Source: Candidatus Heimdallarchaeota archaeon (GTDB lineage: Archaea; Asgardarchaeota; Heimdallarchaeia; Heimdallarchaeales; Kariarchaeaceae). From it: DNA of 31,927 bases. Under the pieces are notes generated by a model. The model was not told where the DNA came from and did no database searches. It saw only the letters and a program-made list of their open reading frames with translations. Shown here in pieces: positions 16,996-25,407 of this stretch (the first letter of the stretch is position 1; each line of letters starts with the position of its first letter). The stretch covers positions 1 to 31,927 of the forward strand of contig WAKA01000222.1 of the NCBI GenBank assembly GCA_015523565.1, written 5' to 3'. The position numbers were made by a program, and so were the translations under genes.

Positions 16996-19011
16996 ATGAG
17001 CTTTGACAGAAGGGAATTATTTGGTGAATTAGCCAATAAAATCGGTGCAGAAGACATTACAGACCCATTTGAACTTCTCAAAAGAGGGGATGAGGAATCC
17101 CAAAAAGGAAATCATGGCAAGGCCAAGGAATTTTATGAAAAAGCAATAGCAACAGGCAAGGCAAAAGCAGAGCGTTTTGAAAGCAACAACCAGCATCGGT
17201 CTGCCGCAGAAATGAATTATGCGCGGGCTCTTGCCAATTTAAGACTAAATAAGACTGAAGCCGCCATGGCACTTTACTCAAAAATTGGAACACAATTGAT
17301 AGAAGGGGGGAAGAATTACATTGAATTGTACAAGGAGTATCAAGACGGGGTAATTTTGATTACATTGGGTGGACTGGTTTATGTCCTGCAGGATCGGGTT
17401 GAAGATGCCAAGAACCTGTACTTGACAATGATCAATGAAATTGAACAAAAAGGTCAAACAGGTGAAATTCAACAAGGTCTGGCCCAATTAAAGGAAACCC
17501 TCTGGACAGTTGGTTATATCATAAAGGCAATTCAAGATGTTGACCATAGTGCCCTCCAAAGTGCCCAACAATTAATTTCGAAGTCCATCAAACCAAACCT
17601 GAAAAAAGCAAAAGTTGCTGGAATGGAGCCATTATTGGACGAGGTGGTCAATTATACCCTGAATTACTTCCAAAGTCAAATTAAACTCCCACGGATTGTC
17701 ATTCGATCCACCATCCCCCCTGAAATGGTAGCAAATGAAATTTTTGAAATCAAATTTGATATTGAAAACAAAGGTGAAGGCGAAGCAAATTCCCTTGTCA
17801 TGGAAATGGAATTCCCCAACGACCTTGAACTGGTTGACGGATCACCCTCTGTTTCCTACGAAAAATTGGTCCCAAATCAACAATTAACCCAATCATATTC
17901 ATTGCGGTACCAAACAAGTATTGAAGAGGATCGCGAGTTTCAACTTCAAGGAAAACTATCCTACAAGGATATGCTCAATAATGAACAAGTTCAATTTATA
18001 GGTCCTATCCCACTGGAAATCAACGCGAAAAGCAAGAAAGATGAATTCACCTCCATATTGTCAGATAAACTTTCAAAATGGAACGAGATGAAAGAAAAGG
18101 GGTTCGCAGAATTAATCCCCTCTGAATTGGTTGATTCAATACAAACGTTGGTTGACAAGACCAAGTCACAGATTGAAACACTTATTGAAAACTCTCAATA
18201 CGAAAAAGCTGAAGCAATGTTCAGCACATTTGATACAATTCTCGAGTGGGTTGAAGAAAGCATAAGGGAAGGTGTTGTTGCCAAAAGACTACTAGATGCA
18301 ATCAAGAAAGGACAAGAGGCTTATGCCGAGGAAAAAGTAAGGGAAGCAGAAGAAAAACACAATCAAGAAATGGAAAAAACCATTGAACGGATAAATTCAA
18401 TGAAGGAAGAAGAAAAACAAGAGGCTCTTACAAAACAGGAAGCTGAACTAGAACGAAAATGGAAACAAGAAATTGAAAATCTAAAAGCTGAGCACCAACA
18501 AGAACTTGACAACCTCAAGGGCGAACATGAAAAACAACTTAAAATGAAATTAATTGAACTTGAAGAGGCACTGAATGAGAAACATCGAAAAGAAATTGAT
18601 GAAATCAATGAGAAAAATGAGAAAGGCATCAGAGAAATCCAACAAGAATACCAAAACGAATTGGAAACAAAAGTAGAGGAAGCAAAGCAACAAATAGAAG
18701 AAAAGTATGAGAAACAAATCAAAGAGCTGAAACAGAGTTTCGAAGAAGAAAAAAGACAGCTCATTGAACGCATGACAGAAGAAAAAGAAAATGAAATTCA
18801 AAGTTTAACTGCAAAATTTGAAGTGGAAAAAGAAAAATTGAAACAGGACTTGCGAAATGAATTTGAAGAAGAAAAGGAACAGGCAATCAATAAGGCATTG
18901 GAAGAAGCTTCAGAAAGCCAAGCCCGTGCATTCAAAGTAAAAGAAAATGAATATAAGGAAAAAATCGCCGAACTTGAACGAAGAGTGGCAAGATTAGAAA
19001 GCGGTGAATAA
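16996..19011 (+). CDS. TPR/SNAP-like solenoid + Ig-like domain + long C-terminal coiled coil protein
   Basis: Helical repeats in the first ~230 aa ('KAKEFYEKAI'), Ig-like segment 'FEIKFDIENKGEGEA...LSYKD', then an E/K/Q-rich heptad coiled coil of ~230 aa. Confidence 0.75.
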   Translation: MSFDRRELFGELANKIGAEDITDPFELLKRGDEESQKGNHGKAKEFYEKAIATGKAKAERFESNNQHRSAAEMNYARALANLRLNKTEAAMALYSKIGTQLIEGGKNYIELYKEYQDGVILITLGGLVYVLQDRVEDAKNLYLTMINEIEQKGQTGEIQQGLAQLKETLWTVGYIIKAIQDVDHSALQSAQQLISKSIKPNLKKAKVAGMEPLLDEVVNYTLNYFQSQIKLPRIVIRSTIPPEMVANEIFEIKFDIENKGEGEANSLVMEMEFPNDLELVDGSPSVSYEKLVPNQQLTQSYSLRYQTSIEEDREFQLQGKLSYKDMLNNEQVQFIGPIPLEINAKSKKDEFTSILSDKLSKWNEMKEKGFAELIPSELVDSIQTLVDKTKSQIETLIENSQYEKAEAMFSTFDTILEWVEESIREGVVAKRLLDAIKKGQEAYAEEKVREAEEKHNQEMEKTIERINSMKEEEKQEALTKQEAELERKWKQEIENLKAEHQQELDNLKGEHEKQLKMKLIELEEALNEKHRKEIDEINEKNEKGIREIQQEYQNELETKVEEAKQQIEEKYEKQIKELKQSFEEEKRQLIERMTEEKENEIQSLTAKFEVEKEKLKQDLRNEFEEEKEQAINKALEEASESQARAFKVKENEYKEKIAELERRVARLESGE

Positions 19012-19705: not shown

Positions 19706-19839
19706 ATTAATGATTTTTCTAGAAAATCCTTTGATATTGATCTAATCACTCTGTTTTCATATATTTGCCCCTTTTTTCATGTACAATAAGGTGTAGTTTT
19801 TTATACAATAACGTTGAAAATTATCATGCAGATTGTGCT

Positions 19840-21027
19840 ATGAGCGACCTTGAGAGTTACATTGATAAAGTATTGCAAGACAGCCAAGATTTTCAAAAAA
19901 TTAAGAAATTAGCAATTGAAATAAATGAGGTTGGAAGTAGGGTTGCTGATTTTGTAACATCCATCAAGCCAAAATTAAGACAAATAAATTCTCATTTAAT
20001 GGATCTTGAAGAAGAATTTGACAATCTTGTTGTAAAATTAGCCAAAACTCCACCCCAGTTTATTTCAGTGCCTCCACTTAAAATTTTAGGGGATATGCCC
20101 GCACCTCCTCCTAGTGCAAGTGTATCACAACCCCAAGCTTCCCCCTCTACACCAACGACAAGTATTCCAAATTTACCATCCCCTGCTGTTACAGCATCTC
20201 CTGCCCCTGTCCATGCACCTAATTTGGGTGGAGCTTCCAGTGGCGGACCCAATTTGGGCGGAGCTCCCAGTGGCGGACCCAATCTGGGCGGAGCTTCCAG
20301 TGGCGGATCCAATTTGGGCGGAGCTCCCAGTGGTGGACCCAATTTGGGCGGTGCTCCCAGTGGTGGTCCCAATTTGGGCGGTGCTCCCCGCGGTGGTCCC
20401 AATTTGGGTGGTGCTCCCCGCGGTGGTTCCAATTTGGGTGGTGCTCCCAGTGGTGGTCCCAATTTGGGTGGTGCTCCCCGCGGTGGTCCCAATTTGGGTG
20501 GTGCTCCCCGCGGTGGTCCCAATTTGGGCGGTGCTCCCCGCGGTGGACCCAATTTGGGCGGTGCTCCCAGTGGCGGTCCCAATTTGGGTGCCGGTCCTAA
20601 ACCTGCAAGTCCTGCACCAATGGGTGGTCCAGGGATGATTGGTGCAGATGACCTGAAATCTGCATTGAGTAGTCTTAAAAAGGTCTCCCCTGAAGAAAAA
20701 TCTAAACCTGCAAGTACTCCTCCTCCACTTGGTGGTGGTGGCATGTTTTCAGAAGATGCCATCAAAGGTGCCTTAAGTAGCCTGAAAAAAGTTCCAAAGG
20801 AGGAACGAAAGGAAGTTACTGGAATAAGCTCTCCTGTAGGTATCTCTGAAGGTGTAATCAAAAGTGCCCTTAGTAGTCTAAAAAGTGTCAAGAAAAAAGA
20901 AGAAAAGAAATCCAAAAAATCCGAAGATGAGGATGATGTCTTGAGCAAAGAGGCAAATGTTGAGGAAATGTCTGCTGAAGAAATGAAAAGTCTCCTTCAA
21001 GAAAAACTGAAAGCTGCGTTCAAATAA
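19840..21027 (+). CDS. Coiled-coil / Pro-rich / Gly-repeat protein with three WH2-like motifs
   Basis: ATG at 19840; N-terminal coiled coil, P/S/T-rich tract, 12 x PNLGGAP[SR]GG, three [LI]K[SG]ALSSLK[KS]V motifs, acidic patch, C-terminal amphipathic helix. Confidence 0.8.
   Translation: MSDLESYIDKVLQDSQDFQKIKKLAIEINEVGSRVADFVTSIKPKLRQINSHLMDLEEEFDNLVVKLAKTPPQFISVPPLKILGDMPAPPPSASVSQPQASPSTPTTSIPNLPSPAVTASPAPVHAPNLGGASSGGPNLGGAPSGGPNLGGASSGGSNLGGAPSGGPNLGGAPSGGPNLGGAPRGGPNLGGAPRGGSNLGGAPSGGPNLGGAPRGGPNLGGAPRGGPNLGGAPRGGPNLGGAPSGGPNLGAGPKPASPAPMGGPGMIGADDLKSALSSLKKVSPEEKSKPASTPPPLGGGGMFSEDAIKGALSSLKKVPKEERKEVTGISSPVGISEGVIKSALSSLKSVKKKEEKKSKKSEDEDDVLSKEANVEEMSAEEMKSLLQEKLKAAFK
20218..20591 (+). 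repeat. 30-bp coding tandem repeat, 12 full units plus a partial unit
   Basis: Units begin aat(t/c)tggg every 30 bp from 20221 to 20581; consensus ccc aat ttg ggy ggw gct ccc mgy ggy ggw; no spacers. Confidence 0.97.
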
Positions 21028-21062
21028 TCCTTAGATTTTTAATTTCTGTAAATTTGCTAAAT

Positions 21063-21875
21063 ATGATGATTGATTTTTTATTTTATGTGTTATTGGGCGT
21101 TGTACAAGGGATCGCAGAATGGTTGCCAGTTTCTTCAGAAGGTATGCTTACTTTAGTTGGATTGGCCTTTGGGTATGACTTTTCACAATCAATCCGTATT
21201 GCCATATGGATCCATCTTGGTACTCTAATTGCTGCTGTTATTTACTATTTTGAGGATTGGAAACGTATTTTGTTGGATATTCGAAATTCTGTTCCCGAAA
21301 GAAATTTTCTAATCATTACTACAATAGGTACAGCTGTTACAGGCATTCCAATTAAAATTTGGGTATTAGACGCATTGGACGCAGATATAATGTCTGTATT
21401 GGGCTATCTAGTCATCGGGATTGCATTGTTGGTTACATCTGCCTTAATATATTTCTCTCGAAAGACATTTGAAACCAATCTCAAGGAAATTAAGGATCTC
21501 TCTTTTTTTGAGCAATTTCTTATTGGTATTGCTCAGGGGTTTACAATAATCCCTGGTATTAGTAGATCAGGTACCACTGTTTCTGCATTGCTCCTTGAAA
21601 AAGTTGATTCAGAGGAATCATTCCGTGGGTCTTTCTTAATGTCAGTTCCTGCAGTTTTAGGTGGTGTTGTCCTCGACATCATTGATATTTCCCAATCAAC
21701 TTCGAATGTGTCTTACAATATTGGTGGCATTATAATTGGAATTCTTCTCGCCTTTATTTTTGGAATCCTGACAATTCACACACTCATTAATTTTGCAAGG
21801 AAAATAAATTTTGCAACCTTTACATTCATTTTTGGTGTAATCCTTATTATAATTGGGCTGGTTCTTATCCTATAA
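21063..21875 (+). CDS. uppP: Undecaprenyl/polyprenyl-diphosphate phosphatase (BacA family)
   Basis: 'QGIAEWLPVSSEG', 'HLGT' and 'PGISRSG'; multi-pass membrane protein. Confidence 0.93.
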   Translation: MMIDFLFYVLLGVVQGIAEWLPVSSEGMLTLVGLAFGYDFSQSIRIAIWIHLGTLIAAVIYYFEDWKRILLDIRNSVPERNFLIITTIGTAVTGIPIKIWVLDALDADIMSVLGYLVIGIALLVTSALIYFSRKTFETNLKEIKDLSFFEQFLIGIAQGFTIIPGISRSGTTVSALLLEKVDSEESFRGSFLMSVPAVLGGVVLDIIDISQSTSNVSYNIGGIIIGILLAFIFGILTIHTLINFARKINFATFTFIFGVILIIIGLVLIL

Positions 21876-21877
21876 TT

Positions 21878-24800
21878 TTAGAGGTTTCTTCTATATTCAC
21901 CTCCAACCTTGTATAGGGCGTGACTTATCTGACCCAATGAACATACTTGCACAGTATTCAATAATTCCTCAAAAATATTTCCCCCTTCAATGGCAACCTG
22001 TTGAAGTTTTCTTAATGCCTGTTCAGATTTGTCTTTATGTTTGTCGTGAAATTCCCTTAATCTTCTGATTTGCATGTCTTTTTCTTCTTTTGTAGCCCTG
22101 ATCAATTCATTGACCTCTAATTCATTTGATTTCCTGTTTGGATTGAGGAATGTATTGACTCCAATTATTGGCAGTTGTCCCGTATTTTTGAGTGTTTCAT
22201 AATATAGGGATTCCTCTTGGATTTTACTTCGCTGGTATTGGGTTTCCATTGCTCCCAAAACCCCTCCTCTTGCGGTCAATCTATCAAATTCTGCAAGAAT
22301 GGCTTCTTCCACAAGTTCAGTCAATTCTTGAATAATAAATGCGCCTTGGTTCGGATTTTCATTCTTGGCTACTCCAAATTCACGATTGATAATTAACTGG
22401 ATTGCCATCGCCCGTCTTACAGATTCTTCAGTGGGTGTGGTTATTGCCTCATCATAAGCATTTGTATGTAGAGAATTGCAGTTGTCATAAATCGCTAATA
22501 ATGCCTGCAGTGTTGTTCTGATGTCATTAAAGTCAACTTCTTGGGCATGAAGGCTTCTTCCTGATGTCTGTATATGATATTTCAACATTTGACTTCTTTT
22601 GTTTCCTTTGTACTTATTTTTGACTGCAATTGCCCAAATACGTCTTGCGACCCTTCCTATGACGCTATATTCTGGATCAAGCCCATTGCTGAAGAAAAAT
22701 GAGAAATTGGGTGCGAAATCATCAATATGCAATCCTCTAGAGAGATAATATTCCAGATATGTAAATCCATTTGCAAGAGTAAATGCGACCTGTGTTATGG
22801 GATTTGCTCCAGCTTCTGCGATGTGGTATCCTGAAATGGAAACTGAGTAATAGTTCTTCACGTTGTTTTCAACGAAATACTGCTGGATATCTCCCATCAT
22901 CCTTAAGGAGAAATCTATTGAAAAGATACAGGTATTCTGGGCTTGATCCTCTTTAAGGATGTCTGCCTGTACCGTTCCCCTGACAACAGATATTGTCCGT
23001 TTTTTAATTTCCTCGTATATATTGTCAGGAATTAATTTTCTAATTTCTTCCCAGGGCTTTAGTTCTGGTGTATTTTCATCAACAATCCACCATTCACCAC
23101 TATGTACATTGAACCCATATCTCCCATCTCCTGTCCTGACAAAAGCTTCTGCCGGTTTAAGTAGTCCTTGTTCGACAACCCATTTCCTGCATTGCTGACG
23201 GATGGCTGTATTGAAGAAAAATGCAAGCATAATCGGTGCAGGACCGTTAATTGTCATACTAACGGAAGTTGACGGATCACAGAGATCAAATCCTGCATAC
23301 AGTCTTTCCATGTCTTCAATGGTACAAATGGAAACTCCGCTTTCCCCTACCTTTCCATAAATGTCTGGTCTTTCATCAGGGTCTTCACCATATAATGTGA
23401 CTGAATCAAAAGCTGTACTAAGTCGTGCTGCCTTTGAATCTTTGGAAAGGTAATGAAATCTCTTGTTTGTCCTTTCTGGAGGTCCTTCTCCTGCAAACAT
23501 CCTTGTGGGGTCTTCAAATGTTCGTTTGAATGGATATACCCCTGCTGTAAAGGGAAAAGTGCCAGGGACATTTTCAAGCAGTTGCCATTCTAAAATCTCC
23601 CCCCAATCCTTAAAGTTGGGCAAGGAAACTTTTGGTATTCGTTGGTGGGAGAGCGATTCAGTAAATGTCTGAACCCTTATTTCTCTTCCTCTAACTAGAT
23701 AAACAAATTCATCATTAGAATATTTCTTCTTTAATTCTTCCCAATTTTCTATCAATTTGCGGTTTTCTGGTGTCAGTTGGCTCTTGTACCATTCAATTTG
23801 TTGATCCAATAATTCCAGCATTCCTTCTGGAATATTCTCGATAAACGGAGGTCTTGGTTCATCACTCCTTGGATCAATTGGTTCATTCGCTTTCAGGATG
23901 GATTTCTTGACCTCCTCTAACTGCCACCATTTTCTCGCAAATTCTGCCTGCTGTCGAGCCCATTCCTTATATGTTCGTACTGTATCCGCAATTTCAGACA
24001 AATACCTTATCCTGTTTGGGGGAATGATATTGTCTTGTTGTGGAAGTCCTATGGGGAAATCTGCCAATTCCATCAATTGGGAATTGAAGGAAAGGTCTGG
24101 GAAACGTTCATTGATTATCCCCACTAAATGGAGATAAAGGGAATTAACGCCTGCATCATTAAACTTGCTTGCTCTTGTTCCAAATACGGGAAGTTTTTCA
24201 TCTGGATACTTTTCAATGTCAAATAACTTCCTTGATCTCCTGTATTGTTTCCGTACATCCCTCAATGCATCAAGCGAGCCTTGTCTCTCAAATTTATTGA
24301 TGACGATGATGTCTGCAAAGTCAATCATGTCAATCTTTTCCAGTTGGGTGGATGCACCATAGTCTGAAGTCATGACATACAACGAAATGTCACTTAAATC
24401 AACAATTTCTGTCCCAGATTGCCCAATGCCCGATGTTTCCACTATGATGACATCATATCCAACAAACTTGCAAATGTCCACTGCCTCATCTGCGGCCTTG
24501 CTAACTGCCAAATTTGCCTGTCTTGTCGCCAATGATCGCATATAGATGTTGTCTGTGTGGCTCAATGTATTCATTCTGATTCGGTCGGCAAGTAATGCCC
24601 CGCCTGTCTTGCGTTTTGACGGATCAATTGATATGATTGCCAATGTCTTGTCCGGAAAGTCCATGAGAAATCTTCTTGCCAGCTCATCTGTCAATGATGA
24701 CTTTCCTGCACCTCCAGTCCCTGTAATGCCAATGACAGGCACACGTTTTTTTCTTCCCTTTTCCAATATTTTCATGTCTTCCAAAAGATTGTTTTCAGCC

Positions 24801-25327
24801 TTTGTAATAGTCCCCGCGGTATATCGCCATTCCTCTTCCAATATTTTTGGATCAAACTCTTTTGGTGAATATTTACTGGTGTCAAAATCACACTCTTTGA
24901 GAATATAGTTGATCATCCCCTGTAATCCCATCTCCCTGCCGTCATCAGGGGAAAATATCTTTGAAATGCCATAGGCTTCCAATTCCTCAATTTCATGTGG
25001 AACAATGACACCTCCTCCACCACCAAAAATCTTGATGTGATCTGCATTGAACTTTCGCAACAAATCCTTCATATATTTGAAAAATTCCATGTGTCCGCCC
25101 TGATAGCTGGAAACTGCAATACCCTGTACATCTTCCTGCAAAGCCGCTTTCACTATGTCCATAACGCTTCGATTGTGTCCTAGATGAATAACCTCTGCCC
25201 CTGAATCCTGCAATATTCTTCGCATGATGTTAATTGCCGCATCATGGCCGTCAAACAGTGACGCCGCAGTCACTATACGAATTGCATGTTTTGATTTGTA
25301 GACCTCAGGCTCAGCAAATGTTTGCAT
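21878..25327 (-). CDS. icmF: Fused isobutyryl-CoA mutase / MeaI GTPase chaperone
   Basis: B12-binding '[16 protein letters not shown]', P-loop 'GTGGAGKSS', mutase 'TRMFAGEG' (Phe) and '[13 protein letters not shown]' (Gln), the IcmF specificity residues. Confidence 0.95.
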
Positions 25328-25407
25328 AATAATCAAATCACTTTTGTCATCATTTTAAAAAATGGTTTGGTTCTGTAATTGCAAAATCGCACACTCTCTC
25401 CCTTTGG

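What the first reader, a model, noticed from the sequence alone, without database searches (positions are those of the whole stretch)
19840..21027. WASP/Spire-like architecture: Pro-rich protein with three tandem WH2-like motifs
Seen: N-terminal coiled coil (~65 aa), Pro-rich tract (PAPPPS, TPPPLGG), long flexible linker, then IGADDLKSALSSLKKV, FSEDAIKGALSSLKKV and ISEGVIKSALSSLKSV (20638-20889), a basic then acidic patch (SEDEDD) and a terminal amphipathic helix (MKSLLQEKLKAAFK). Known: WH2 is an amphipathic helix followed by LKK[TV] that binds G-actin; tandem WH2 arrays nucleate actin (Spire, Cobl, VopL); polyproline binds profilin; Asgard archaea encode actin and profilin. Inference: an archaeal actin nucleator or elongation factor, perhaps dimerised by the coiled coil. 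It lacks the terminal acidic-Trp motif of Arp2/3 activators.
Basis: partly seen in the sequence, partly recalled or inferred. Interest (0 to 1): 0.88.

Follow-up and report, generated by a model that had tools for sequence, protein, structure and literature searches.

The report
Heimdall disordered scaffold with LKK helices
This gene encodes a real, conserved, mostly floppy protein of Heimdall-group Asgard archaea whose short docking helices resemble actin-binding motifs, but resemble ESCRT tail motifs equally well, so it is an interesting, untested candidate actin factor and not a demonstrated one.

Summary
Window 19840-21027 (+) encodes a 395-aa protein with an N-terminal long helix, a Pro-rich tract, twelve PNLGGAPSGG repeats, three '...ALSSLKK/SV' helices, a basic and acidic patch, and a terminal helix.

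The protein is not an orphan. It is the long, Heimdallarchaeales/Kariarchaeaceae form of an unnamed pan-Asgard family with a coiled coil, a Pro-rich linker and an end helix. This scan has met the family before on other DNA, in at least 37 genomes.

WH2 membership fails. The Pfam WH2 model does not match any of 12 members. No WH2 chain appears in a PDB profile search. The helix-to-LKK spacing is two residues shorter than canonical.

The tail resembles the GAB-FAB-coil order of Ena/VASP EVH2, but only weakly (profile P about 1e-3 to 2e-4). The LKK helices match this lineage's own ESCRT-III MIM1-like tails about as well as they match GAB (P 0.0015 against 0.007).

Gene context points to membranes, not actin. 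The neighbours are DedA/VTT, PAP2 or UppP genes in independent lineages, and one lineage has an Arf-like GTPase fusion.

A published Lokiactin pull-down gives no support for the Lokiarchaeum ortholog.

Verdict: a multivalent adaptor near the membrane. Actin is the best single guess for its partner (about 0.3).

The parts
19800..19805 (+). TTTATA, a TATA-box-like element about 35 nt upstream of the ATG
   Evidence: Sequence read and hexamer listed. The reading as an archaeal TATA box is inference.
19840..21027 (+). Coding sequence, 395 aa plus stop (P0001)
   Evidence: Orthologs occur in 38 of 42 genomes of the same order that were searched, with one full-length match per genome in nearly all.
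19843..20046 (+). N-terminal long helix, residues 2-69: a coiled-coil-type oligomerisation or anchor module
   Evidence: AF2 predicts helices 2-13 and 15-69 with pLDDT about 90. A PDB profile search returns only generic, mostly trimeric, coiled coils. It is homologous to the N-terminus of pan-Asgard short forms, hhalign P=7.8e-10.
20047..20220 (+). Pro/Ser/Thr/Ala-rich disordered tract, residues 70-127, including PAPPPS
   Evidence: Translation; pLDDT below 50.
20221..20588 (+). 30-bp tandem repeat, 12.3 copies, encoding (G/S)PNLGGA(P/S)(S/R)GG. PNL-type repeats of varying number occur in all orthologs.
   Evidence: alignment A1.
20632..20703 (+). LKK helix motif 1, residues 265-288 (GMIGADDLKSALSSLKKVSPEEKS)
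   Evidence: AF2 helix 269-280.
20740..20811 (+). LKK helix motif 2, residues 301-324 (GMFSEDAIKGALSSLKKVPKEERK), preceded by TPPPLGGGG
   Evidence: AF2 helix 305-316.
20836..20907 (+). LKK helix motif 3, residues 333-356 (VGISEGVIKSALSSLKSVKKKEEK), running into a basic cluster
   Evidence: AF2 helix 337-356.
20908..20970 (+). Charged, mostly acidic spacer, residues 357-377 (KSKKSEDEDD...)
   Evidence: Translation; pLDDT below 50.
20971..21024 (+). Family-defining end helix, residues 378-395 (SAEEMKSLLQEKLKAAFK)
   Evidence: K383, L386, L390 and A393 are invariant. AF2 predicts helix 379-394. It is homologous to the pan-Asgard end helix, hhalign P=1.7e-7.
21054..21875 (+). Neighbouring gene: undecaprenyl-diphosphatase UppP/BacA, 26 nt downstream on the same strand
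   Evidence: Pfam BacA, 5.2e-52. The adjacency recurs in Kariarchaeaceae.

Best explanation
P0001 is the long form of an unnamed pan-Asgard protein family.

Shown:
- An N-terminal coiled-coil helix.
- About 200 disordered Pro/Gly-rich residues.
- Three short amphipathic helices ending in LKK(V)/LKSV.
- A charged spacer and a strongly conserved end helix.

Inferred mechanism: the N-terminal helix oligomerises the protein and places it near the membrane. The placement is suggested by conserved neighbours that are lipid-carrier membrane proteins, and by a fusion to an Arf-like GTPase in another lineage. The floppy spacer then presents many copies of the short helices to a soluble partner.

The most likely single partner is actin. 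In that reading the LKK helices dock in the conserved barbed-end hydrophobic cleft, as WH2 and VASP GAB motifs do. The end helix acts like VASP's FAB or arcadin-2's C-terminal helix. Together they concentrate or tether actin at the membrane in an Ena/VASP-like way.

The protein would work like an EVH2/WH2 array without being a member of those families. Actin binding itself is not shown.
For: Conservation:
- The family is real and under constraint. Matches occur in 9/10, 26/29 and 3/3 genomes of three families of the order.
- Motif positions 0 (L), +2 (K or S), +3 (mostly A or V), -4 (A or V) and -7 (mostly I or L) are conserved over 44 instances.

Actin is available as a partner:
- The genome encodes one true actin (456 bits to PF00022). 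It is 61% identical to vertebrate actin, and the segments that I recall as lining the barbed-end cleft are unchanged in that alignment.

Resemblance to EVH2, using Ena/VASP sequences retrieved by the tool:
- The best local hhalign hit of the tail is the GAB (P=0.068 for A3, 0.0011 for the f1-type subset, 0.0069 for the motif profile).
- The FAB is the best hit for the pooled tails (P=0.0018) and for the pan-Asgard end helix (P=7e-4, against 0.29 for the reversed control).
- A global alignment is colinear (GAB, GGGG+FAB, coil start) with P=2e-4.
- For the three tail subsets (sub1, sub2, pooled) the real scores exceed all 25 window-shuffled and reversed controls; for alignment A3, which holds the window's own protein, they do not.
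- Smith-Waterman scores of four tails beat shuffles that preserve local composition (p<=0.015). The window's own tail gives p=0.06.

Other points:
- The motif spacing of 32-36 residues seems comparable to that of tandem actin-binding arrays, as I recall them.
- Short forms carry true polyproline. The Lokiarchaeum ortholog has PPPPPG three times.
- Heimdall profilin binds polyproline weakly (PMC8410842).
- There is an archaeal precedent: the last 17 residues of arcadin-2 bind crenactin's hydrophobic groove (PMC5173319).
- The recent literature names only gelsolins and profilins as Asgard actin regulators, so the role is vacant (PMC13716822).
Against: - The Pfam WH2 model does not match any of 12 members at E<=10. 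VASP_tetra was not among the Pfam families reported for any of them, and no WH1 domain was found.
- A PDB profile search of the tail finds no WH2 or VASP chain.
- The helix-to-LKK distance is two residues shorter than in WH2 and GAB.
- All EVH2 similarities are weak (hhalign probability at most 26%, apart from one artefact) and partly compositional. The broad alignment A3 does not beat the shuffled controls.
- The motif matches the order's own ESCRT-III MIM1-like tails without a gap, P=0.0015.
- No actin, profilin or gelsolin gene lies beside the gene in 90 family loci. The conserved neighbours are membrane lipid-carrier proteins.
- In the published Lokiactin co-IP, no protein of the size of the Lokiarchaeum ortholog (16.1 or 15.2 kDa) appears among rows with log2 ratio >=1.13. 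The enriched 'Arf' is not a family member.
Confidence: 0.3

Rival explanations
1. ESCRT-linked adaptor. The LKK helices are MIM1-type motifs that bind the MIT domain of Vps4, or another MIT protein. The oligomeric protein then recruits or regulates Vps4 at membranes.
For: - The order's ESCRT-III proteins end in conserved tails: '(S/T)DLExELxxLKK...' and 'DDLExEIQKLRKKEE'.
- P0001's motifs ('ADDLKSALSSLKKV', 'EDAIKGALSSLKKV') share the L-x3-L-x2-L-K-K spacing with no gap. hhalign gives P=0.0015 against the ESCRT-IIIA tails.
- The genome has a Vps4 with an MIT domain (50.9 bits) and two Snf7-family genes.
- A membrane-related context fits ESCRT function.
Against: - The motifs are internal, tandem, net basic and followed by Pro. 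The ESCRT-III tails are C-terminal and acidic.
- The best-conserved motif position is Ala at -4, which is Glu in the ESCRT-III tails.
- Position -3, a key Leu of MIM1, is K or A in many family members.
- The match to the ESCRT-IIIB tails is weak (P=0.071).
- The gene is not near the ESCRT clusters.
Confidence: 0.15
2. Accessory factor of membrane lipid-carrier handling. The protein works with polyprenyl/dolichyl-phosphate recycling or lipid-scrambling membrane proteins. Its amphipathic basic helices bind the membrane surface or those proteins directly, with no cytoskeletal partner.
For: - Three independent gene arrangements link the family to such proteins.
- A VTT/DedA gene lies directly upstream on the same strand in 10 loci from four Asgard families.
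- A PAP2 phosphatase is adjacent in 8 of 9 loci of a fifth family.
- UppP/BacA lies 26 nt downstream here. It is also adjacent in the two other genomes of the genus (G001, G002), and lies within 2 kb in two further Kariarchaeaceae loci (L019, L028).
- DedA proteins include undecaprenyl-phosphate flippases (PMC9876793, PMC10127716).
- UppP and some PAP2 enzymes dephosphorylate the same carrier (established knowledge).
- In one lineage the module is fused to an Arf-like GTPase, a membrane-associated switch.
Against: - Heimdallarchaeaceae orthologs have unrelated neighbours: a threonine-aldolase-like gene and a beta-CASP RNase.
- The hydrophobic faces of the helices are small (L, A, L), which is weak for membrane insertion.
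- An oligo-T and A/T-rich stretch separates the gene from UppP, so they may be separate transcripts.
- PAP2 and DedA are broad families with other substrates.
- This reading is compatible with an actin or ESCRT partner at the other end of the tether.
Confidence: 0.25
3. A true homolog of eukaryotic WH2-domain proteins (WASP, WAVE, WASH or Spire family).
For: - The LKKV tetrapeptide is preceded by a helix.
- One ortholog's N-terminal helix scores 25.5 bits on PF10152 (CCDC53 of the WASH complex), just above the cut-off of 24.6.
Against: - The WH2 HMM fails in every member.
- The N-terminal profile hits only generic coiled coils in the PDB. No BRK1, CCDC53 or WAVE chain is among the 60 listed.
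- The other 11 members do not hit CCDC53.
- There is no acidic-Trp motif.
- I searched the genome for Pfam Actin only. It gave a single match, the actin itself, so no actin-related protein was seen.
Confidence: 0.04
4. A generic disordered spacer or condensate-forming protein, whose conserved helices have only structural or self-association roles.
For: - More than half of the chain has pLDDT below 50.
- The repeat number is evolutionarily unstable.
- RGG-like triplets occur in some repeats.
Against: - RGG is not conserved in orthologs.
- The helices and their flanks are conserved at specific positions across orders, as expected for partner-binding linear motifs.
- The same tail module is attached to an unrelated integrase-like domain.
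Confidence: 0.1

Closest known systems
Ena/VASP EVH2 module with its preceding Pro-rich region (GAB, FAB, tetramerising coil)
   Same: - Both have a Pro/Gly-rich region followed by short helices that are preceded by Gly runs and end in a basic cluster. The family has ALxxLKK(A/V)P, against VASP's AIAGAKLRKV.
- A second helix+RRRK-type motif occurs in many family members and in the integrase-fused paralog. That paralog shares the exact ALLARRRK with the Ena/VASP consensus.
- An acidic/Lys-rich stretch and a terminal helix follow, and both proteins oligomerise.
- The colinear profile alignment gives P=2e-4.
   Different: - There is no EVH1 domain, and VASP_tetra was not among the Pfam families reported.
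- The oligomerising helix is N-terminal, not C-terminal.
- The motif is two residues shorter than GAB.
- The similarity is statistically weak and partly compositional.
- As I recall it, Ena/VASP is restricted to certain eukaryotic lineages, so any likeness is probably convergent.
WH2 domain (Pfam PF02205) and tandem-WH2 nucleators (Spire, Cobl, VopL/VopF)
   Same: - A short amphipathic helix followed by LKK(V).
- Tandem copies about 32-36 residues apart in a disordered region next to Pro-rich sequence.
- An oligomerisation element, as in VopL.
   Different: - The Pfam model does not match.
- The linker between the hydrophobic helix positions and LKK is two residues shorter.
- The family consensus is LKK(A/V)P, not LKK(T/V).
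- The AF2 monomer runs the helix through the Leu and first Lys of the LKK motif.
MIM1 motifs at the C-termini of ESCRT-III proteins
   Same: The pattern (D/E)-x-x-L-x3-L-x2-L-K-K has identical spacing to the tails of this order's own ESCRT-III proteins.
   Different: - The motifs are internal and tandem rather than C-terminal.
- They are basic rather than acidic.
- Ala at -4 is conserved where the ESCRT-III tails have Glu.
- The protein has no Snf7 domain.
Arcadin-2 of Pyrobaculum (crenactin regulator, PDB 5LY3)
   Same: An archaeal protein whose conserved C-terminal helix is the actin-binding element, docking in the hydrophobic groove (PMC5173319). It is a functional precedent for the end helix.
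   Different: I did not test for sequence similarity. Arcadin-2 relies on a Trp-containing peptide and belongs to the crenarchaeal arcade cluster.
Unnamed pan-Asgard 'coiled coil, Pro-rich linker, end helix' family (short forms of 130-190 aa)
   Same: The N-terminal helix (P=7.8e-10) and the end helix (P=1.7e-7) are homologous, and the order of parts is the same.
   Different: The Heimdallarchaeales/Kariarchaeaceae long form inserts PNL repeats and two or three LKK helices between the linker and the end helix.

Membership tests
WH2 domain (PF02205) | Match to the family profile | tested here: not met
   No hit at E<=1 in P0001. No hit at E<=10 in any of 12 orthologs. A whole-genome scan with the model finds nothing in the window's contig.
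WH2 domain (PF02205) | LKK(T/V) tetrapeptide | tested here: met
   P0001 has LKKV, LKKV and LKSV. The family consensus is L-K-K-(A/V)-P.
WH2 domain (PF02205) | Canonical spacing of the hydrophobic helix positions relative to LKK (LLxxIxxGxxLKKV type) | tested here: not met
   hhalign needs a two-residue gap to align the motif with VASP GAB. The hydrophobic positions lie at -7, -4 and -3.
WH2 domain (PF02205) | Binding in the barbed-end cleft of actin | not testable with these tools
Only the conservation of the cleft-forming segments could be shown.
Ena/VASP | EVH1 (WH1) domain and VASP tetramerisation domain | tested here: not met
   Neither PF00568 nor PF08776 was reported for P0001 or among the families listed for its orthologs.
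Ena/VASP | EVH2 order of GAB, FAB and coil, with sequence similarity | tested here: inconclusive
   - Global colinear hhalign gives P=2e-4, probability 21%.
- Local hits to GAB and FAB give P between 7e-4 and 0.07.
- The subsets beat the shuffled controls, but the broad alignment does not.
ESCRT-III MIM1 motif | (D/E)xxLxxxLxxL(K/R) amphipathic helix | tested here: inconclusive
   All three P0001 motifs fit the pattern. They align ungapped to the order's ESCRT-IIIA tails with P=0.0015. Position -3 is not hydrophobic in many orthologs.
ESCRT-III MIM1 motif | Location at the C-terminus of a Snf7-domain protein | tested here: not met
   P0001 has no Snf7 domain, and the motifs are internal.
WASH subunit CCDC53 / BRK1-type helix (PF10152) | Match to the family profile across members | tested here: not met
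   One of 12 members reaches 25.5 bits (cut-off 24.6); the others give nothing. The N-terminal profile finds only generic coiled coils in the PDB.
Pan-Asgard coiled-coil / Pro-linker / end-helix family (unnamed) | Homologous N-terminal helix | tested here: met
   hhalign of A2 against the short-form N-termini: probability 96.5%, P=7.8e-10, 57 columns.
Pan-Asgard coiled-coil / Pro-linker / end-helix family (unnamed) | Homologous end helix (LQxELKxxFxxL type) at the C-terminus | tested here: met
   hhalign: probability 93.8%, P=1.7e-7. The end-helix profile also finds a second order of the class (10/11 genomes) and a 189-aa member elsewhere.

The most novel reading that the evidence does not exclude
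The pan-Asgard family, of which this is the long form, is the missing archaeal actin-assembly factor. In this reading it is an oligomeric polymerase or tether coupled to the membrane or to a GTPase. It loads actin (or profilin-actin, through its Pro-rich tracts) by means of short basic helices, and it evolved independently of, or ancestrally to, eukaryotic Ena/VASP- and WH2-type factors.
Probability: 0.2. Interest if true: 0.9.

Novelty: new variant of a known kind. Interest (0 to 1): 0.6.

Why it matters
Asgard archaea have eukaryote-like actin, profilin, gelsolin and, according to another note of this scan that I did not check, cofilin in this very genome. No filament nucleator or elongator has been described for them. 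The 2026 work on Asgard motility still lists only gelsolins and profilins (PMC13716822).

A conserved, oligomeric protein associated with the membrane and carrying multivalent helix+basic motifs is the kind of molecule that could fill that gap. If it bound actin, it would show that EVH2/WH2-style assembly logic predates eukaryotes or arose convergently next to them.

If it instead binds Vps4, or serves lipid-carrier recycling, it would reveal a new linear-motif hub in Asgard membrane biology. Either outcome can be tested with a few peptides and purified proteins.

Tried and rejected
1. Complex prediction of the genome's actin (+ATP, Mg) with motif 2. The tool counted the job but did not fold it, because it judged the actin eukaryote-like. 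I attempted it by no other route. This says nothing for or against binding.

2. Word-indexed homolog search with the C-terminal 141 residues found nothing. The ESM Atlas feature search gave no usable hit.

3. An exhaustive profile search of 1.84 billion representatives gave only 21 hits. I read about 16 as family members. The rest are HEAT-like repeat proteins or unrelated repeat proteins.

4. CCDC53/BRK1 lead: one ortholog sits just above the Pfam cut-off, but the PDB profile search shows generic coiled-coil likeness only. Rejected as evidence of homology.

5. An hhalign hit of P=4e-8 between a four-sequence tail alignment and the VASP coil was an artefact of a poor alignment. With 24 end helices, P=0.033.

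6. Idea that the 'Arf' enriched in the published Lokiactin co-IP (GNAMCCOK_04696, 38.1 kDa) is the Arf-fused form of this family. I located a 329-aa, 38.12-kDa ORF in the 6.0-Mb single-contig genome G375. It is a GTPase with what looks, by eye, like a roadblock-type C-terminus, and it has no coiled coil or end helix. Rejected.

7. The Lokiarchaeum short-form ortholog (152 aa, 16.14 kDa) was sought by size among co-IP rows with log2 ratio >=1.13 and not found. Its locus number is unknown to me, so rows below that ratio were not checked.

8. Actin adjacency: tblastn of the actin against 90 family loci found none.

9. Weak Pfam WH2 hits elsewhere in the genome are spurious short ORFs.

10. N-glycosylation sequon reading of the PNLS repeats: rejected. 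The third position is not consistently S or T, and I see no signal peptide or membrane span in the sequence.
Full report
**Observation.**
The ORF at 19840-21027 (+) is open and encodes 395 residues. A TTTATA element 35 nt upstream favours the ATG at 19840 over the upstream TTG.

AF2, run with the ortholog alignment, predicts the following:
- one long N-terminal helix, residues 2-69, pLDDT about 90;
- about 200 disordered residues;
- a terminal helix, 379-394.

All the quoted peptides are present.

**Organism and actin.**
The assembly is 3.57 Mb in 233 contigs and 90% complete. It encodes one true actin (456 bits to Pfam Actin). The closest relatives of that actin are labelled Heimdallarchaeota, Kariarchaeaceae and Heimdallarchaeaceae.

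The actin is 61% identical to a fish cytoplasmic actin. The segments SLYASGRTTG and WIGGSILASL.TF..MW, which I recall as lining the barbed-end cleft, are unchanged in that alignment.

The neighbours of the gene are housekeeping genes: tRNA-intron endonuclease upstream, UppP/BacA 26 nt downstream, and an IcmF-like fused mutase on the other strand.

**The family.**
A word-indexed search with the C-terminal third found nothing. Six-frame searches of related genomes, however, found orthologs throughout the order.

- The 12-sequence alignment A1 shows a conserved N-terminal helix and PNL-type repeats of variable number.
- It also shows two or three copies of GG-(I/V)-S-x3-(I/L)-x2-A-(L/A/K)-x2-L-K-K-(A/V)-P, an acidic patch and a strongly conserved end helix S-x3-M-K-x2-L-Q-x2-L-x2-A-F.
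- A profile of the tail finds only 21 clusters among 1.84 billion representatives.
- Among 300 Asgard genomes the tail profile finds the gene in 9/10, 26/29 and 3/3 genomes of three families of the order, with one full-length match per genome in nearly all.
- Records that carry names are 'hypothetical protein' of Kariarchaeaceae or Heimdallarchaeota.

Prompted by earlier notes of this scan, I tested whether this is the long form of a wider family.

- An end-helix profile picks up a second order of the class (10/11 genomes) and a 189-aa protein in another lineage.
- That 189-aa protein in turn finds 130-190-aa proteins in many Asgard families, and a ~415-aa fusion in one large family (45/68 genomes).
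- Pfam shows that the fusion's N-terminal part is an Arf-like GTPase.
- Profile-profile comparison confirms homology of both ends: N-terminal helix P=7.8e-10, end helix P=1.7e-7.

The core of the family is therefore a coiled coil, a Pro-rich linker and an end helix. The LKK helices and the PNL repeats are an insertion specific to Heimdallarchaeales and Kariarchaeaceae.

**Is it WH2?**
The Pfam WH2 model does not match P0001 or any of 12 orthologs, even at E<=10. A whole-genome scan with the model hits nothing in this contig, and the weak hits elsewhere are spurious. A profile of the tail finds no WH2- or VASP-containing chain in the PDB at E<=10.

Across 44 motif instances the constrained positions are L at 0, K or S at +2, mostly A or V at +3, P at +4, A or V at -4, and mostly I or L at -7. 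To align these with VASP's GAB, hhalign must delete two residues between the helix and LKK. The motif is thus WH2-like in outline, but it fails the family tests.

**Is it EVH2-like?**
From them I built an EVH2 alignment.

- Different subsets of the family tail pick, as their best local match, the GAB (P=0.068, 0.0011, 0.0069), the FAB (P=0.0018, and 7e-4 for the pan-Asgard end helix) and the start of the coil (P=0.033).
- A global alignment is colinear, with P=2e-4.
- Reversed and window-shuffled controls score lower for the subsets, but not for the broad alignment.
- Smith-Waterman scores against shuffles that preserve local composition are significant for four tails. The window's own tail is marginal, p=0.06.
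- A paralogous tail on an integrase-like protein contains ALLARRRK, identical to the Ena/VASP consensus.

I read this as a shared 'grammar' that is probably convergent, not as homology.

**A rival of equal weight.**
The two ESCRT-III proteins of this genome end in '...NLEDELEALKKELEGK' and '...SDLEKEIEELRKDD'. These tails are conserved across the order.

P0001's motifs share the L-x3-L-x2-L-K-K spacing without any gap. The motif profile matches the ESCRT-IIIA tails at P=0.0015, against P=0.0069 for GAB. The genome has a Vps4 with an MIT domain.

Three things argue against this rival. The motifs are internal, basic and followed by Pro. Ala at -4 is Glu in the ESCRT tails. Position -3 is often not hydrophobic.

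**Gene context.**
No actin lies within the flanks of 90 family loci. Instead there are three independent arrangements:
- a VTT/DedA membrane protein directly upstream on the same strand in ten loci from four families;
- a PAP2 phosphatase adjacent in eight of nine loci of the Arf-fusion family;
- UppP/BacA next to the gene here and in the two other genomes of the genus, and within 2 kb in two more Kariarchaeaceae loci.

DedA proteins include undecaprenyl-phosphate flippases (PMC9876793, PMC10127716). UppP and some PAP2 enzymes act on the same carrier (established knowledge).

This is the only independent functional evidence that I found, and it places the family at the membrane. Heimdallarchaeaceae orthologs lack this context.

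**Published pull-down.**
The Lokiactin co-IP of Lokiarchaeum ossiferum lists an enriched 'Arf' of 38.1 kDa. I identified genome G375 as the likely L. ossiferum genome from its size, 6.0 Mb in one contig. In it I found a 329-aa ORF of 38.12 kDa. It is a GTPase with what looks, by eye, like a roadblock-type C-terminus, and it has no coiled coil or end helix. It is therefore not a member of this family.

The Lokiarchaeum ortholog of the family is a 152-aa, 16.14-kDa protein with three PPPPPG tracts and the end helix SLRGSIMDELKTLFSKRR, followed by DDDDDD. No protein of that size appears among the rows with log2 ratio >=1.13. This gives no support, but it is weak as counter-evidence, because I identified the protein by mass only.

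**What could not be done.**
The central claim, binding in the barbed-end cleft, is therefore untested.

**Verdict.**
The protein is a conserved, oligomeric, mostly disordered adaptor that carries multivalent short helices, and it is probably positioned at the membrane. My estimates for its partner are:
- actin, the best single candidate, about 0.3;
- a role with lipid-carrier membrane proteins and no cytoskeletal partner, about 0.25;
- Vps4-MIT, about 0.15.

It is not a member of the WH2, Ena/VASP or CCDC53 families. The family is undescribed in the literature I searched, but this scan has flagged it repeatedly on other genomes.

Noticed in passing
L030:448-2010 (+) = G000 contig C126:10447-12009; L031:330-2138 (+) in genome G008: An integrase-like protein (Pfam Phage_integrase plus SAM-like N-domain) carries the same kind of tail. 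In G008 the tail has PSLGG repeats, 'GGIADALKGLSKAPP' and 'MGELKALLARRRKMA'. In the window's own genome it has only 'GGGGLSFLSELKAKLQARNKEQKEKKE'. The tail is therefore a portable module.
   Followed up: partly
L114:1438-2661 (-), L123:1480-2718 (-), and 73 of 75 near-complete genomes of family f14: In one large Asgard family the coiled coil and end helix form the C-terminus of a ~415-aa protein, whose middle is an Arf/Rag-like GTPase (Pfam Arf, 1.4e-20).
   Followed up: partly
L103:581-1315 (+), L108:2276-3118 (-), L120:178-1161 (+), L101:2140-2868 (-): A VTT/DedA-domain membrane protein lies directly upstream of the short-form gene, on the same strand, in four different Asgard families. This is a conserved gene pair.
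   Followed up: partly
L035:1441-2058 (+) and L035:2066-2767 (+); tails collected from loci L038-L067: The order's two ESCRT-III paralogs have strongly conserved MIM1-like C-terminal tails: '(S/T)DLExELxxLKK...' and 'DDLExEIQKLRKKEE'.
   Followed up: yes
G375 contig C1, ORF around 5472482-5472904 (-), in locus L130: The 'Arf' enriched in the published Lokiactin co-IP (38.1 kDa) matches a 329-aa, 38.12-kDa GTPase with what looks, by eye, like a roadblock-type C-terminal domain. This is a Rag/Gtr-like layout rather than a plain Arf.
   Followed up: partly
P0133 (2389 aa, Nitzschia inconspicua) and P0140 (248 aa, metagenome, L037:673-1419): A diatom protein has 11 tandem copies of 'NPPPLAAGGGGGIAAMAAQAALKKAQAKTTEED'. 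A small protein that appears to have a signal peptide has four copies of 'ITPEELMEARSRLRKV'. Both match the motif profile, including its unusual spacing, and both have unknown function.
   Followed up: partly
window 16996-19011 (+): A 671-aa protein with weak TPR hits, a weak TRAP-beta/CARDB-like (Ig-like) segment and a ~230-aa highly charged coiled coil. No family passes a Pfam cut-off.
   Followed up: no
window 21878-25336 (-): A fused B12-binding domain, MeaB-type GTPase and methylmalonyl-CoA-mutase protein (IcmF-like, 1152 aa).
   Followed up: no
L020:44-691 (+), L020:615-1415 (+), L020:1459-2634 (+): Vps4 (MIT plus AAA, 391 aa) lies downstream of two small genes. They were not run through Pfam. 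The cluster is separate from the ESCRT-III pair on contig C11.
   Followed up: no
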